Of a stretch of 17,704 nt of DNA, positions 9,001 through 15,000 are shown piece by piece. Position numbers: made by a program. Numbering within the stretch: position 1 is the stretch's first letter; every line of letters begins with the position of its first letter. The stretch lies in the IMG/VR virus record IMGVR_UViG_2541047122_000031, one strand, 5' to 3'. This DNA comes from a virus. Taxonomy: Duplodnaviria; Heunggongvirae; Uroviricota; Caudoviricetes.

Positions 9001-12000
9001 ATCATCATAGCCTTCGGTCATCGGCGTATTCAGCGCACGAACAGCACCCGGCGACATCTTACCGGTCAGCCATTCATCCGAGGCTTCAGCACCATCACTG
9101 ACAGCCTTACCGGTGACCTTCAGACCTTTACCGACAGTATCAGTGACCGCGTTTTTTCCATCAGGCAGGGTATCGATGACCTCATCAGCCCCCTTGCTGC
9201 CACCGGCAAAAATATCCTGAACAGTTGCGACACCCGGCAGCCCCATACGGCTGAACTCATTTAAAATACGCGCCCCTGTTTTCACTGGGCTTTGAATCAT
9301 CGCATCACCGAGTCCACGGGCCATTTCCCCTGTTCCGCGGACGGACTGAGCGGCCCCCTTCCCTATAGTTGGTAATACATCGCCCAGGCTGAACGACGTG
9401 CTGTTATCCTTCCAGCGATTGGGGTCGGAGAAAAACGCATCATAGCTGTCTGTCTCGCCAGGCTGCTGAATGTTCAGGCTGTTACGGTTCTGGTTACCCA
9501 ATTGCGCTTCAGGGCGCTGTTCATCTGAAAAAGCCATACAGACTCCATAAAAAAACCCGGCACAATGACCGGGTATCAGGAAATGGTATTAACGGGAATG
9601 GTGAATTACTGCGCGTAATTCTGTTTCAGTCCACGGATAAACTCAGATGCAGAGGCTGCGCTATCATCTCTGGCCTGTTCACTCTTAGCCTTTTGAATAC
9701 GGAGAAAATTCGCATACCCGTTTTCCAGCAATTTCTGATTCTGAGGCTCCAGCATTTCTGGCTGACGGGAGGCCACTTCTCTGGCGAATGCCTGCTTATC
9801 CGGATCATCACCCGCCCAACTGGTAATCACTTGTTGAATTTTTTGCTGCTGAATTTTCTGCTGATACTGCGGCAGTCCCATCGAGGCGTAATATTGCGTC
9901 ACGGCTCCCTGTGCATCACCACCGTCCTGTGCAACTTTTATCGCTACCTGGCTGGCTCCTTTCTGAAGTTGTTCCGCAGAAAGTCCCTGCTGCTTCGGCT
10001 TGAAATAACCGTAATTTTTCGAAATTTCCGCGAATTTACTGCGATCCCTGACAAGAGCGACAGCCTTATCAACAGGCACCGCCAGCACAGTTTGATCATC
10101 AGGATGTGCGCTGCCGTATTCCGTAACGGGTTTATGTGCGGTGGAGCCATCGCTGTATGTGAGATCAAGGCCGATAAGTACGTACCCTTCCTGCTGCGCT
10201 GGTACGATACTGCCAATCCTGGCCTCTTTTATCGTTTTGTCCCCGGTTGAATCAGGCATGCCAATACGCTGTTGTAGTTCCGGGGCAAACACGCCGGAAA
10301 GCACATCGAGATTTTCCGGGGTATTCAGCGAATCGATCGCCATGTCCGGCTTATCACCAAAGATTTTTTGCAGGTTGATCACGGCCTGACCCGCTTTCGC
10401 TGCATAGCCTTCGTTTGACATAAGAATTAATGGATGTCCCTTTGGCAGCTGCCCGAACAGACGCGTTGCAGCCTCCTGATCGCCAGCCTCAATTGCTTTT
10501 CCAAGCGCTTCCATTAGTGGCTGGCTATGGGCAATCATATCGTTATACTCAAGCCGTCGCTGGTTGTATTTCTGCAACTGGAGTCGCTGCTGCTCCATAC
10601 CCAGTGACGCATTCCGGTAATTCTGGTTAGCGTTAAACTCCCTTTCCTTCAGTGCATAATTACGGTCGTCAACTTTGGCTCTGTAATCAAAGTTCCGCTG
10701 ATCAACGTTTTTATTATGTTCAAACTGAGACTGCGCAAACTCAAAATCGCGCTCGTTATTTTTCTGTTGCCGGGCAAGCTGTGCTTCACGCAGACCAAGC
10801 TCCTTACGACGGGTCATTGCCTGGTCAACGGTGCTGAATCCGGCAAGTAACCCCTGTGCAAATCCGCTCATTCACCACTCCTTAAAACAAAGAACCAGCA
10901 ATGCCGCCAATTACTGCTCCAGCAACAGCACCAACAGGACCACCAACGGATGCGCCAATAGCCGCCCCCGTACCAATGCCCGTACCGATATTCTGCTTGT
11001 TCTGCGCTTTCTGTTGCGCCGCCATCTGTTTGTTCGCAGCCTCAATTTCTTCACGTCGTCTGTCTGCGTCACTTATTCCCTGTAATGCCTCACGCCGCGA
11101 CTGATTTGCAATATCCAGTAAACCGTATCCCATATTGCCCCCTTACGCTGCCACCAGTTGGCCGCCAACACTCAGTTTCTGTCTTGCCGGTGCAGAAGCC
11201 CCCGTCAGAATATTCATCTGGCGATCCTGTTCGGCTTCACGGATACCATTTTTCGCGCCAGCAATTGCCAGGGCATTACGTAACCCCAGCGTATTACTGT
11301 CGGGATTATCCGGGCGGTTTACCCCGTATCTCGCCATCTGGTTATCCTGCGCCATCTGCGCTGTACGGAGACTGGAAGTGGCAAGGCCTCCCACCCGTGC
11401 AAGCTGTGCATTCATCAGACTGTTGTTCTCCCCAAGGTCAGCCAGCCTTGCTACACGGGGTAAATATCTGGTGCGCCAGTCGTCGTATTGCTGGCGGGTC
11501 AGCGCTGCGGATGTCTGCCAGTCCCCCTGAGGGCGGGCTGCTCCGGTATAACCGTATCTTGCAAGTGTTTCGTATTTACCGTACTCCATAATCACAGTCT
11601 CCAGTTCTGAGCCTGATGCTGAATGGCATTAGCGCCGGTGCCAGGTGTTTTAGCACCGCCACTTCCTCCGCTACCGCCAGCCTTATGCATCGCATATGCA
11701 CCAGCCGCACCCAGACCAGCGCCAACAAGAGAGGCTCGCCCCTGCTGTTTCGTAAACGCCGCCTGTGCATCCGATTTAGCTTTTGCCAGACTGCTGTCTG
11801 CCAGAGAGTTAAAACTCTGTAACGCATCCGCCTTCTGACCAGAACCGAGAGCAGCAACATCCTGTAGCCCGGCAACATACTTATCTGCCTGCGATACCTG
11901 CCCCCGTGTGGTTGTGTCAATCTGCCCGGTTACCTGGTCACTCTGGTTCGCATTCATTACCGCATTAAAACGACCACTGGATGGGTCAACGCCGGACTGA

Positions 12001-15000
12001 GCAAGATTACCCGCAAGCTCCTTCCGTGCTTCGCCAAACTGTTTCTGATACCCCAGATTTGTGGTGCCAGCAATATTGTCGTACTGCTGCTCACTGTTCA
12101 GGTCATCGACCTTTTCCATGAAGTTATCTTCAGCCGGGCGGAGGATATTTTTGTAATCCTGCCACCCTTTCCAGGCCACTTCTTCCTGTGCTATTTGCGC
12201 TGCTGTTGGTTTTACTTTGGTATCACCACCGCCTTTACTTCCACCCATAATGGCCCCCTGGATAACAAAAAACCCTGCCGGAGCAGGGTCAGAATGTGAA
12301 TTACAATGTTGGTTTAAACACAATGATGAAAACTGTAGCAGTCAGACCGCTATCCTGAACACCATGAAGCCATCCTCATCATCCGGCATTCGCTCAAAGC
12401 CCAGTCGTTTTCCCAGCCGGATAAATCCCCGCCTTGCCGTATGGAACTCAGCCCAGCGTCCGCCAGCCAGATGGGTTAATGTCTTCACCTCCGGCAGGTA
12501 ACGCTCAACGCTGTTACTCCCCGTACACACGCCCAGCAACACCAGAACATAAGGGATACCATCAGCACTGAGCACAGAACGCAGCACCAAAAAGCCATCA
12601 GGTGCCTCAAAACAAAACGCCTGCTTTTTAAGGCAGGCGTCTTTAACTTCATTCATAAATTCAGGGTTGCGGGAATTTCTCACAACACGCTGCATATACC
12701 AGAGAATTTTATCGTTCATTCTCTCACCTGAAACGGGTGCCATATCGGCTGAACCTCAGCAACCAGTTGACGGGGACTCTCGTCCCCGTCGCGGTTTTCC
12801 TACTGCTTACACTGTAAGAACGCCGCAAACTCCGCTCCCCACAAATTCAGCCGGAACTCACACAGTGAACCGTGCAACATCCAGATGGTGAAGATAACCG
12901 TCATGCAAATTGTGACGGTGATAAGCGATTTTTGCGACATAGCGCTTGACTCCTTTTACAGAGAGGCGCTAACCTTCTACTTGCTTAAGGTACGAAGTGT
13001 TAGGGCCTCGGGTTAACGTTAAGTTGACTCGGGGCCTTTCCACATCAGGCCTTCAGGTTCACCCTCCAGCCATCAGCCGAAAGGCACCCACGCATAATTT
13101 ACGGTTTTTGCCCTGTACGGGCAATAAAAAACCCGCCATCACAGCGGGTAGTAAACGGTTACCGGATACAGGTCAGAATTTCAGGCCAATGCCAGCAGTA
13201 ACGCCACTCGTGCGCCAGTCGCCAGAGCCGGAACCTTCGTAAGCCACATCCAGTGTAACACTCTCATTCAGGTTAAACTGTGCACCTGCAGCCCACGCAA
13301 GGGAGTTTTTTTTCGTGCTGTTGCTTTCAGAAAATCCGCCACTACTGTTAATATTGTCCTTAATTTTCAGGTCAGCGCTAACTTTAGCAACGCCCATCCC
13401 TGCCATCGCATATAAACTCATGTACTGATTAACCCGCCATGAAGGCCCCGCTAACAGACTCCAGTAATTCGCCCTGATATCCGTTCTGGCAGAAGCTGCC
13501 GGATTCTTAATCTTCCTGGTATGATCGGCTGACTGCACATCAATAAATGTCTGTGAGTTAGTGAGAGAACGCGTCCATGTAAAAGAGGTGATAACGCCAA
13601 AATCATCCGTTATCTCGTAGCGATACCTGATATTAATGCCCTGTGGATTTTTATCCTTGCCTTCATATCCACTGACCCGACCATCTGTATATTCGCCCAA
13701 TGAAGAAAAGTAGTTTCTGTTGACGAAATGACTGAAAGTCTCCCTGTTATGAGCAGTCGCATCCTTTACAAAATCCTTCAGTCCCGGAAACTGAAAGTGC
13801 GCATACCCCAGAGAAATTGTATGCTCTCCTTCTGCTGCATGTGCAGATAAATTTACACAGGCAATCCCGGAGATTGCACACACAACCAGTGTTGCTATAC
13901 TCTTCATTTAAGATATCCTGTATTCAGATAACACGCTAAACTTTTTAATAATACATCTTTTTAGACATTTTAAATGAATATTAAAGACTCGCTTCAACTA
14001 ATCATATACTGATGTATTAATAACCAGGACCTTATCTATATACGGCTTTCGAATATCCCATGTTGCACCACCGGAATAATGCTCACAGGAATATATTTTA
14101 TTTCCTGTAGCACCAGTGGATGTGGTATAAATCGGTCGATCATAAGGAGTTCTTTTCCAGTTATAATACCCGACCAGTGCAGGCATGATTGCGCATGGAT
14201 ATCCAAGGTCCTTTTCAAATTTGATATCAACAGGTATTAACTTCGCGTCAAGCAGCATCATTTCGCCATGATAAATCATCTCACCGTCCGGGTTATACAT
14301 GGCGATACCATACTCAGAAGGTGGAGTAACCATATTCGCGAAAGCATAAACCGTCGTAACACCAGGGTTCGTTCCCCTGACAATTACATGAAGCCTTAGT
14401 GCATGATATCCATCAATCTGTTCATGCGTGTACATGACATCGGCCTTCTTCTCTGTTCTGATAAAGAAAAAACAACTTTTGCCTGACGGGATTGATGTTT
14501 TAAAAAAAGACTTTTCAGTCGCCGGTATGGTGCCTTTGTTGATCAGACACTGCGGCGTAAAACCTGGACTTATCCATACGCTGCCATCCGGCTTCATAAT
14601 GCTCAAACCGTACATAACACTTATCCCCAGAATGTATAAATATAAGATCCCATACCCTGCTCAAGATTCGACCACGTCACCGTATTGTCATTAATGGTTA
14701 TCTTCGGTACTTTCCGATCCGCAAATACATTATTCCAGGGAAATAAACAACATACAGCCTGCAATGATTTCCCGTCGGGTTTATTAGTGTACGTCTTTGA
14801 GCCAGACTCCGCTGTAAATCTGTCCAGGAAAAATACTGGAGTCAGCACGCCCGTAACATTAACGTTATTTCTGTTATAAATGGCAAAACCGTATTCCAAT
14901 ACTCACCTCCTGATCAGCGTAATCTGCCTATGCGAACAGCCAGTCGTCCATTCTGGTCATAAACCTCAATTTTATCATTGCGGATCACCAGTCCTACATT

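What the first reader, a model, noticed from the sequence alone, without database searches (positions are those of the whole stretch)
9606..12248. Four translationally coupled genes (218, 150, 83, 421 aa) upstream of the giant ORF, including a glycine-zipper membrane protein
Seen in sequence: the stop and start of the 218- and 150-aa genes overlap (ATGA at 11592-11595), and the gaps between 150/83 and 83/421 are 9-10 nt with Shine-Dalgarno sequences in the gaps. The module is bracketed by intrinsic terminators at 12262-12289 and 9549-9574. The 83-aa protein is a charged helix plus a GxxxG-repeat membrane segment, the 218-aa protein has Gly-rich termini, and the 421-aa protein is Gln/Asn-rich coiled-coil. 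None carries a motif I recognise from tail, head, lysis or known defence genes. Inference: tight coupling implies a stoichiometric complex, either internal virion/ejection proteins that accompany the giant protein or an accessory module. The placement downstream of lom and hok is where lambdoid phages carry morons, not core morphogenesis genes.
Basis: partly seen in the sequence, partly recalled or inferred. Interest (0 to 1): 0.6.

Follow-up and report, generated by a model that had tools for sequence, protein, structure and literature searches.

The report
Stx phage DNA-ejection protein cassette
These four tightly packed genes of a Shiga-toxin phage encode proteins carried inside the virus particle, most likely the distant, rearranged counterparts of the phage P22 "ejection proteins" that build the channel through which DNA and a giant protein enter the bacterium.

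Summary
The four genes are real (218, 148, 83 and 421 aa, minus strand) and lie in a 933W/phi24B-type Stx podophage. They are 91-100% identical to phi24B gp51, gp50, gp49 and gp48. All four were detected by mass spectrometry in purified phi24B virions, three at roughly 20-45 copies each, yet none is seen in the cryo-EM map. They are not morons. In every divergent relative examined (Aeromonas, Vibrio, metagenomic) the order is tail needle, a 120-130 aa gene, A, B, C, D, giant protein; lom and hok are insertions found only in the E. coli lineage. Profile comparison links A's N-terminus to the processed N-terminus of P22 ejection protein gp7. It also links C's glycine zipper, ending ...GSLF, to gp7's C-terminus. 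D resembles gp20 in position, size and N-terminal motif, and a natural chimera fuses a D-like domain to P22 gp16. Best reading: a divergent ejection-protein cassette with the giant polyvalent protein in the gp16 slot. Virion residence is shown; ejection and channel building are inferred.

The parts
12342..12743 (-). U: 133-aa GNAT-fold protein and first gene of the conserved block. It was not in the finding and was not detected in phi24B virions.
12271..12290 (-). Terminator-like hairpin plus T-run between U and A, seen only in the Stx-phage lineage.
   Evidence: In the other lineages U and A are 8-10 nt apart.
11592..12248 (-). A: 218-aa virion protein (phi24B gp51). It has the N-terminus MGGSKGGGD and a Gly/Ala-rich uncharged segment at residues 172-187. 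Proposed gp7-like (T7 gp14 class) ejection protein.
   Evidence: It is 98.6% identical to phi24B vb_24B_44 and is present at about 22-27 copies per virion. It matches PHROG 611 and, more weakly, phrog_8003 'virion structural protein'. The family HMM hits a Ralstonia GP4 virion-associated protein at E=6.6e-9. hhalign against P22 gp7 gives E 0.005-0.008, starting at the processed N-terminus. In the shuffle control, 0 of 200 shuffles reached the observed score.
11143..11589 (-). B: 148-aa virion protein (phi24B gp50; an alternative GTG start lies at 11595). Soluble and helical; role unknown.
   Evidence: It is 100% identical to vb_24B_45 and is present at about 36-48 copies per virion. It is syntenic in all relatives. 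It has no Pfam, NCBIfam or PDB match.
10882..11133 (-). C: 83-aa protein (phi24B gp49, annotated 'bacteriocin'). A charged helix is followed by a C-terminal glycine zipper ending GSLF, homologous to the C-terminus of P22 gp7.
   Evidence: It is 100% identical to vb_24B_46, and peptides were found in virions (13 PSM). The hit to Gly-zipper_YMGG has E 9.4e-6. The hit to Bacteriocin_IIc scores 19.7 bits, below the 27.1 cut-off. hhalign against gp7 residues 192-229 gives probability 89% and E 2.4e-6. In the shuffle control, 0 of 200 shuffles reached the observed score. Seven of 10 family members hit Pfam P22_gp7 at E<=1.
9606..10871 (-). D: 421-aa virion protein (phi24B gp48). It has the N-terminal motif GLLAGF, a 124-residue helix, a small beta domain and a helical C-terminal domain. 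Proposed gp20-like (T7 gp15 class) tunnel protein.
   Evidence: It is 91% identical to vb_24B_47 and is present at about 30-37 copies per virion, with an intact N-terminal peptide. The AF2 model has pLDDT 86. It has no specific PDB or BFVD fold match. The family is small, 64 clusters. A D-like N-terminal domain is fused to a P22 gp16-like domain in P0156.
9555..9574 (-). Hairpin plus T-run in the 68-nt gap between D and the giant gene. It is conserved by position in the Aeromonas and Vibrio lineages.
1156..9537 (-). Giant 2793-aa polyvalent protein (phi24B gp47). It is carried in the virion and occupies the gp16 position of the cassette.
   Evidence: Pfam finds LPD5, LPD1, MuF_C and LPD38. It is 96.5% identical to vb_24B_48. 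It is abundant in virions, unseen in the map, and proposed as an ejection protein by the phi24B authors.

Best explanation
The four genes belong to a larger block with the GNAT-fold gene upstream and the giant gene downstream. Together these form the internal (ejection) protein cassette of a 933W/phi24B-type short-tailed phage.

Shown: the products are made late and are present in mature particles at tens of copies. They are not part of the resolved shell or tail.

Inferred: at infection they leave through the tail before the DNA and assemble a channel across the cell envelope. A and C together correspond to P22 gp7. Their conserved free N-terminus and glycine-zipper segments would dock on the tail nozzle and insert into the outer membrane. 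D corresponds to P22 gp20; its roughly 18-nm helix could oligomerise into the periplasmic tube. The giant polyvalent protein takes the place of gp16, reaching the inner membrane and cytoplasm and bringing effector domains with it, much as the N4 virion RNA polymerase does. B is a further internal protein of unknown role. U is a non-virion helper, possibly a modifying enzyme.
For: Identity of the element: megablast and annotation place the window in the Traversvirus Stx phages.

Virion residence: the proteins are 91-100% identical to phi24B gp51, gp50, gp49 and gp48. The phi24B virion proteome detects all four plus the giant, at estimated copies of 22-27, 36-48, low, 30-37 and 19-23 respectively. 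All are marked 'ND' in the structure.

Synteny: the same order (needle, U, A, B, C, D, giant) holds in Aeromonas phiARM81mr, Vibrio 1.205.O and 37 divergent viral contigs. It also holds in four metagenomic or genomic contigs chosen through distant D homologues. Ralstonia GP4 and Burkholderia JC1 carry an equivalent block: acetyltransferase, A-like protein, other genes, a ~510-aa protein, then the giant. JC1 mass spectrometry finds the A-like, ~510-aa and giant proteins in virions.

Links to P22, whose order is needle gp26, gp14, gp7, gp20, gp16:
- C's tail against gp7's tail: hhalign probability 89%, E 2.4e-6, and both end in GSLF.
- A's N-terminus against processed gp7*: E 0.005-0.008, colinear over about 160 columns.
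- Column-shuffle controls: 0 of 200 shuffles reached the observed score for either comparison.
- D against gp20, N-terminal motif: 1 of 200 shuffles.

Domain fusion: P0156 joins a D-like N-terminal 260 aa (E 2e-21) to a P22 gp16-like C-terminal 470 aa (35.6% identity, E 7e-77).

Fit with the literature: the size pattern of about 200, 430-980 and >600 aa, with matching done by size and synteny, is how the field defines such cassettes (PMC8954989). D at about 30 copies matches gp20 at about 30. The N4 cassette gp52/gp51/giant gp50 is a precedent for a giant third member.
Against: No experiment shows that these proteins are ejected or are needed for infection.

Glycine zippers are compositionally biased and common in many membrane proteins. 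C gave few spectra, and the phi24B authors filed it as a contaminant. Copy numbers are rough estimates based on spectral counts.
Confidence: 0.66

Rival explanations
1. The four proteins are head-internal helpers whose job is to load, fold or organise the giant polyvalent protein inside the capsid. This would resemble Hdf, DarA and DdrA, which are needed to package DarB in phage P1. On this view they are not channel builders, and they may or may not be injected.
For: They are always adjacent to the giant gene. The giant is annotated DarB-like in GP4 and JC1, and the JC1 authors suggest that unidentified Dar-type helpers lie among the virion proteins. All are internal and present at similar copy numbers. 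Fitting roughly 20 copies of a 310-kDa protein into the head would need organisation.
Against: There is no similarity to P1 Dar accessory proteins in Pfam or PHROGs. The specific similarities are to P22 gp7 and gp20, and the domain fusion is with gp16. Glycine-zipper membrane segments in A and C have no obvious use in cargo loading. A short-tailed phage needs an envelope-spanning channel, and no other candidate genes for it are seen in the virion proteome. The two roles are not mutually exclusive.
Confidence: 0.2
2. The proteins are peripheral or flexible tail or needle-tip components, or fibre assembly factors, that averaging removed from the cryo-EM map.
For: The genes lie downstream of the tail needle gene. 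The phi24B map lacks the distal needle tip, and the authors see an unassigned small density there.
Against: The authors attribute that density to gp54/gp55, which are encoded upstream. There is no Pfam or PHROG similarity to fibre or chaperone families. Copy numbers of 20-45 exceed what a needle tip could hold. The block is linked to the giant internal protein, not to the variable fibre genes.
Confidence: 0.06
3. It is an accessory (moron) module expressed for the lysogen or for competition, for example a bacteriocin-like toxin (C) with partners, or a defence or anti-defence set. Virion detection would then be contamination.
For: C is annotated 'bacteriocin' in RefSeq, and there is a weak Pfam Bacteriocin_IIc hit (E 8.8e-4). 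The block sits next to lom and hok, and hairpins flank it.
Against: The bacteriocin hit is below the cut-off, and C has no double-glycine leader, transporter or immunity gene. The block is invariant in order across distant lineages that lack lom and hok, and its GC equals that of the core genes. Three of the four proteins are among the more abundant virion proteins, above the portal in spectral counts.
Confidence: 0.03

Closest known systems
Phage P22 ejection (E) proteins gp7, gp20 and gp16, with gp14 upstream (Lederbergvirus)
   Same: The gene order is the same: tail needle, a small non-virion protein, a ~220-aa protein, a ~450-aa protein, then a large protein. A's N-terminus matches the processed gp7* N-terminus, and C's tail matches gp7's tail including the terminal GSLF. 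D shares gp20's size, copy number (~30) and N-terminal G-F-L-A-G motif. As with the P22 E proteins, these proteins are internal and not resolved in the virion.
   Different: gp7 appears to be split between A and C here; in Ralstonia GP4 the two remain fused. B is an extra 148-aa protein. A and D fail the Pfam P22_gp7 and Inj_translocase models. The third member is a 2793-aa polyvalent protein with no similarity to gp16. The capsid is T=9, not T=7.
Phage N4 / DEV ejection cassette (gp52 150 aa, gp51 644 aa, giant vRNAP gp50 ~3500 aa)
   Same: A short-tailed phage carries small ejection proteins together with a giant multi-domain protein that must pass through the tail channel. All are encoded side by side.
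   Different: There is no sequence similarity. The giant here has LPD and MuF_C domains rather than an RNA polymerase. The gene order is reversed relative to N4.
Bcep22-like and GP4 podophages: block of acetyltransferase, virion proteins and a DarB-like giant
   Same: The virion core is homologous, with a T=9 capsid and related portal and nozzle. An A-like protein is detectable by HMM at E 6.6e-9. An acetyltransferase sits where U sits. A ~510-aa virion protein and a giant virion protein follow.
   Different: These blocks also hold a PAPS-reductase-like gene. The B, C and D families are not detectable by sequence. The giant is larger, at 3224-4515 aa.
Phage P1 Dar antirestriction system (DarB with Hdf, DarA, DdrA, DdrB, Ulx)
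   Same: A giant virion-carried multi-domain protein depends on several small, co-encoded head proteins (from the literature as quoted).
   Different: There is no homology of A-D to the Dar accessory proteins. P1 is a myovirus and does not need a channel made of ejected proteins.

Membership tests
Podovirus ejection-protein cassette (P22 gp7/gp20/gp16, T7 gp14/gp15/gp16 class) | Consecutive genes in the late morphogenesis operon, next to the tail genes, in the order small, medium, large | tested here: met
   The order is needle, U, A (218), B, C, D (421), giant (2793), both in the window and in more than 40 relatives. The P22 order is shown, and the size ranges.
Podovirus ejection-protein cassette (P22 gp7/gp20/gp16, T7 gp14/gp15/gp16 class) | Products are present in mature virions but are not part of the ordered capsid or tail | tested here: met
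   This rests on 91-100% identical orthologues in phi24B. They are detected by LC-MS/MS and marked 'ND' in the cryo-EM model. C gave only 13 spectra.
Podovirus ejection-protein cassette (P22 gp7/gp20/gp16, T7 gp14/gp15/gp16 class) | Released from the particle before the DNA and required for DNA entry, forming a trans-envelope channel | not testable with these tools
   This needs mutants, comparison of full and emptied particles, or in situ tomography.
Pfam PF25688 P22_gp7 | Match to the family model at or above the gathering score | tested here: not met
   A has no hit at E<=1, for the window protein or for 10 family members. The window C has no hit at E<=1, but 7 of 10 C-family members hit at E<=1, and one satellite copy hits at E<=1e-5. 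Profile-profile comparison gives probability 89% for C against the gp7 tail and E 0.005 for A against gp7*.
Pfam PF16928 Inj_translocase (P22 gp20) | Match to the family model | tested here: not met
   There is no hit for D or for 50 family members. hhalign gives probability 0.4%. Only a 6-column N-terminal motif is shared, reached by 1 of 200 shuffles.
P22 gp16 family (PF26808) | Sequence similarity of the large cassette member to gp16 | tested here: not met
   Giant against gp16 gives blastp E>4. The model is not in the local Pfam copy. The link is indirect, through the chimera P0156.
Class II bacteriocin (database name of C) | Pfam Bacteriocin_IIc above the cut-off, a double-glycine leader, and neighbouring transporter or immunity genes | tested here: not met
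   The score is 19.7 bits against a cut-off of 27.1. The N-terminus is a charged helix with no leader. The neighbours are virion genes.
GNAT acetyltransferase superfamily (for the upstream gene U) | GNAT fold | tested here: met
GNAT acetyltransferase superfamily (for the upstream gene U) | Sequence match to GNAT models, an acetyl-CoA binding motif, and enzymatic activity | tested here: inconclusive
   There is no Pfam GNAT hit for 10 members, and hhalign against the GP4 acetyltransferase is not significant. The loop after beta-4 is Gly-rich in the Aeromonas forms but degenerate in E. coli. Activity was not testable.
Phage P1 Dar accessory proteins | Homology to Hdf, DarA, DdrA, DdrB or Ulx | tested here: not met
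   No Pfam or PHROG hits of that kind.
Moron / accessory cassette | Patchy presence among related phages and deviant composition | tested here: not met
   The block is present in identical order in all relatives. Its GC of 0.48-0.57 matches the core genes, whereas the lom region is 0.37-0.45.

The most novel reading that the evidence does not exclude
The GNAT-fold protein U is conserved directly upstream of the gp7-like gene in the 933W-, Aeromonas- and Vibrio-type phages. An annotated acetyltransferase sits at the same place in GP4 and Bcep22-like phages, and gp14 sits there in P22. The reading is that U is a dedicated N-terminal acyl- or acetyl-transferase. It would modify the conserved Met-Gly N-termini of the ejection proteins A, B and C and so prime them for membrane insertion or for docking in the tail. 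That would be a bacteriophage counterpart of the N-myristoylated membrane-penetration peptides of picornaviruses and reoviruses.
Probability: 0.1. Interest if true: 0.85.

Novelty: new variant of a known kind. Interest (0 to 1): 0.5.

Why it matters
933W/phi24B-type phages spread Shiga toxin genes among E. coli, and this block sits in 424 of 5426 complete E. coli genomes. How these short-tailed particles get DNA, and a 310-kDa protein, across the envelope after binding BamA is unknown. The only virion study leaves these proteins as 'hypothetical' and set one aside as a contaminant because of a misleading database name.

Assigning them to the gp7/gp20/gp16 scheme gives a concrete parts list that can be tested. 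It suggests that the P22-type cassette is much older and more plastic than sequence searches show: gp7 can be split or fused, and gp16 can be replaced by a polyvalent giant. It also flags two side issues that deserve study. One is a GNAT enzyme tied to ejection cassettes. The other is phage satellites that carry their own ejection-protein genes.

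Tried and rejected
Searches of A, B and D gave nothing usable. These covered Pfam, NCBIfam and PDB sequences, for the single proteins and for family profiles.

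The first large homologue search with D returned only near-identical E. coli proteins. Diversity came instead from the representative library and from loci.

U could not be linked to GNATs by sequence. Pfam found nothing, the PDB profile search was negative, and hhalign against the GP4 acetyltransferase was not significant. Only the fold search showed the relationship.

U against P22 gp14 is inconclusive: score 15.3 against a null of 11.2 +/- 2.1, reached by 3 of 100 shuffles.

Family HMMs for B, C, D and U find nothing in GP4.

I looked in the phi24B peptide table for N-terminal modification. Only D's unmodified N-terminal peptide is there. Those of A, B and C are not in the stored part of the table.

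Rfam found nothing in the window.

I considered and rejected the bacteriocin, moron and fibre-assembly readings; see the rival explanations.

Full report
**What is there**

The window's minus strand carries, from right to left:
- a tail nozzle fragment;
- the central needle gene (14914..16182, Pfam Phage_Tail_Tip);
- two small genes;
- lom (13173..13907);
- a hok-like 46-codon ORF (12800..12940);
- a 133-codon gene I call U (12342..12743);
- the four genes of the finding;
- a 2793-codon gene (1156..9537).

The four genes are A 12248..11592 (218 aa), B 11589..11143 (148 aa), C 11133..10882 (83 aa) and D 10871..9606 (421 aa). The 9-nt and 10-nt gaps with purine-rich ribosome-binding sites are as described, and so are the two hairpin-plus-T-run sites. 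One detail is wrong. The four bases at 11595-11592 read GTGA, not ATGA. The better start of B is the ATG at 11589, which lies 2 nt after A's stop. It has GGAG 9 nt upstream, it is the annotated start in phi24B, and it aligns with the Met-Gly starts of homologues.

**Where it comes from**

The region matches 186 phage records at 80-97% identity. All are 933W/phi24B-type Stx-converting podophages of the Sepvirinae, genus Traversvirus. It also occurs in 424 of 5426 complete E. coli genomes, where PGAP names the genes 'hypothetical protein' three times and 'bacteriocin' once. The giant protein has LPD5, LPD1, MuF_C and LPD38 domains, so it is a 'polyvalent protein'.

**Direct evidence on the products**

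A 2026 preprint on phi24B (doi 10.64898/2026.04.10.717836) combines cryo-EM with virion proteomics. By blastp, the window proteins are 98.6% (A), 100% (B), 100% (C), 91% (D) and 96.5% (giant) identical to phi24B vb_24B_44 to _48. The preprint calls these gp51, gp50, gp49, gp48 and gp47.

Its supplementary tables list spectra for all five in CsCl-purified virions. The counts are gp48 1634, gp51 523, gp50 129, gp49 13 and gp47 10,962. Normalised to 12 portal copies, the estimated copies per virion are:
- gp48: about 37
- gp51: about 27
- gp50: about 44-48
- gp47: about 23

All are marked 'ND' for the structural model. The authors propose that gp47 is an encapsidated ejection protein, and they do not discuss gp48, gp50 or gp51. 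They filed gp49 under 'contamination' purely because of its 'bacteriocin' annotation. The N-terminal peptide of gp48 (residues 2-21) is seen unmodified, so D is not processed at its N-terminus. U (gp52) was not detected.

**Is it a moron block?**

No. tblastn with A and D finds both, in the same order, in Aeromonas phage phiARM81mr and in about 100 Vibrio phages. There the annotated order is tail tip fibre, a 119-131-aa gene, a 201-212-aa gene, a 117-124-aa gene, a 77-85-aa gene, a 442-466-aa gene, then a 3130-3190-aa gene, with no lom or hok. All five smaller proteins align with U, A, B, C and D.

A scan of viral contigs gave 37 divergent loci (A 44-57% identical), and every one has the same six genes in the same order directly after the needle gene. 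Contigs reached independently through distant D homologues (24-35% identity) show the same order again. One has lom inserted before U, and another has two reverse-strand genes inserted between D and the giant.

The lom region of the window has GC 0.37-0.45, against 0.48-0.57 for the module and the core genes. So lom and hok are the insertions, and the block is core morphogenesis.

More distantly, the A-family HMM hits a 'virion-associated' protein of Ralstonia phage GP4 (E 6.6e-9). It lies in a block ordered acetyltransferase, A-like, PAPS-reductase-like, 509 aa, giant 3224 aa. GP4 is the closest structural relative of phi24B. In the related Burkholderia phage JC1, mass spectrometry found the A-like protein, the 510-aa protein and the giant in virions (PMC9144972).

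**What the proteins look like**

C is a charged helix followed by a 35-residue uncharged glycine zipper. A has a conserved N-terminus, MG(G)(S)KGGGD, kept even in GP4, and a Gly/Ala-rich uncharged stretch at residues 172-187. B has no hydrophobic segment. The giant has none either by a Kyte-Doolittle scan.

D belongs to a small family: 64 clusters among 1.84 billion representatives, conserved over residues 1-285. With a 50-sequence alignment, AlphaFold gives a confident model (pLDDT 86). It has one helix spanning residues 5-128 (about 18 nm), a helical bundle, a small beta domain at 213-266, and a helical C-terminal domain.

**Link to known ejection proteins**

P22 has the order needle gp26, gp14 (151 aa, not a virion protein), gp7 (229 aa), gp20 (471 aa), gp16 (609 aa). 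The literature defines podovirus ejection cassettes mostly by this size pattern and synteny, because the sequences diverge fast (PMC8954989). I built family alignments from the fetched loci and compared profiles.

1. The C family (residues 51-83) aligns with the last 38 residues of gp7 (hhalign probability 89%, E 2.4e-6). Both chains end in ...GSLF, and the Vibrio form shares P-W-G-A-x-I-G-x-G-x-G with gp7. Seven of ten C-family members hit Pfam P22_gp7 at E<=1, although the window's own copy does not.

2. The A family aligns with gp7 starting exactly at residue 21-23 (E 0.005-0.008, colinear over about 160 columns at 27% identity). That is the N-terminus left after the known removal of 20 residues, so 'KGGKGGADKS...AEAQKYAADL' in gp7 corresponds to 'GGSKGGGDTK...TAAQIAQEEV' in A. 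The probability is low (5-8%), and A fails the Pfam model.

3. D and gp20 share an N-terminal G-[FL]-[LA]-x-G-[FI] motif.

Shuffling the columns inside the compared segments keeps composition but destroys order. The results were:

| Comparison | Observed score | Null (mean +/- sd) | Shuffles reaching observed |
|---|---|---|---|
| C vs gp7 | 36.4 | 10.9 +/- 2.8 | 0 of 200 |
| A vs gp7* | 24.8 | 9.1 +/- 1.8 | 0 of 200 |
| D vs gp20 | 17.4 | 8.0 +/- 1.9 | 1 of 200 |

Among 6187 ORFs of the fetched loci, the terminal SLF and the N-terminal motif are almost confined to these families. That background is redundant and biased.

GP4's A-like protein itself ends in a glycine zipper, so A plus C looks like a split gp7.

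Finally there is a natural 1386-aa protein, P0156. It joins a D-like N-terminal domain (blastp E 2e-21; phmmer E 4.5e-17) to a gp16-like C-terminal domain (35.6% identity over 489 residues, E 7e-77).

**The upstream gene**

**Mechanism proposed**

Shown: the genes form a conserved block with the giant gene; the products reside in virions at tens of copies; they are absent from the ordered structure; there are membrane-type segments in A and C; and there is order-specific similarity of C (good) and A (weak) to gp7.

Inferred: on receptor binding and loss of the needle, the proteins leave through the nozzle. A and C dock on the nozzle and insert in the outer membrane, as proposed for gp7* templated by the P22 tail hub (PMC13622523 abstract; PMC10461980). 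D oligomerises into the periplasmic tube; Sf6 gp20 forms a 15-nm tube, and D's helix is about 18 nm. The giant protein follows, reaching the inner membrane and cytoplasm, as the N4 vRNAP does with gp51 and gp52. B has no assigned role. My confidence in the virion-internal status is about 0.9, and in the channel-building role about 0.65.

**Rivals**

A P1-Dar-like loading role for the giant protein is compatible with the linkage and is not exclusive of the channel role, but no homology supports it. The fibre-assembly reading is contradicted by copy numbers and synteny. The moron and bacteriocin readings are contradicted by synteny, composition and Pfam thresholds.

**Novelty**

Virion association of three of the four proteins was published in 2026 without any functional assignment. 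My paper searches turned up nothing that links these proteins to the P22 ejection proteins, recognises U as a GNAT, or mentions the satellite-borne copies. Ejection cassettes are a known kind, and this is a divergent variant: a split gp7, an extra member, and a polyvalent giant in place of gp16.

Noticed in passing
   Followed up: partly
L088 10001-14161; L173 3432-5514: Satellite-like islands (integrase, AlpA, DUF927/Toprim primase) encode ejection-protein genes. One is a 1386-aa chimera of a D-like domain and P22 gp16. The other is a 579-aa D-like protein followed by a 61-aa C-family protein that hits Pfam P22_gp7. This suggests that satellites supply their own DNA-delivery proteins.
   Followed up: partly
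window 9538-9605; L003 16683-16880; L004 18546-18660: The only sizeable gap in the block lies between D and the giant gene. It holds a GC-rich hairpin followed by a U-run in the E. coli, Aeromonas and Vibrio lineages, although the sequences differ. It may be an attenuator that sets the ratio of giant to small proteins.
   Followed up: partly
window 10882-11133 (-): RefSeq/PGAP names C 'bacteriocin' on a sub-threshold glycine-zipper match. That name led the phi24B authors to discard its peptides as contamination.
   Followed up: yes
window 13300-14900: lom and the two small genes after the needle (205 and 92 aa; the phi24B authors' candidate receptor-binding pair gp54/gp55) have GC 0.37-0.45, against about 0.5 elsewhere. 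This suggests separate acquisition.
   Followed up: no
window 12800-12940 (-): A hok-like 46-aa ORF (annotated MokW-like in AU5Stx1) lies between lom and U. No hok/sok RNA family reached the Rfam gathering score anywhere in the window.
   Followed up: no
L081 8596-14357: A prophage copy in which the first 95 codons of A run into the giant ORF, deleting B, C, D and part of A. It is presumably a decayed prophage.
   Followed up: no
L171 5556-6407: Two reverse-strand genes, one of them Rap1a-like, are inserted between D and the giant gene in a distant relative. This shows that the D-giant gap is a moron insertion point.
   Followed up: no
L086 12485-13210 (GP4); JC1 gp65: A PAPS-reductase-like gene sits inside the GP4 and Bcep22-type cassette, between the A-like gene and the ~510-aa virion protein gene. 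It was not detected in JC1 virions, and its role there is unexplained.
   Followed up: no
window 1-933 (+): A 310-codon ORF runs to the left edge of the window on the opposite strand, convergent with the giant gene. It was not examined.
   Followed up: no
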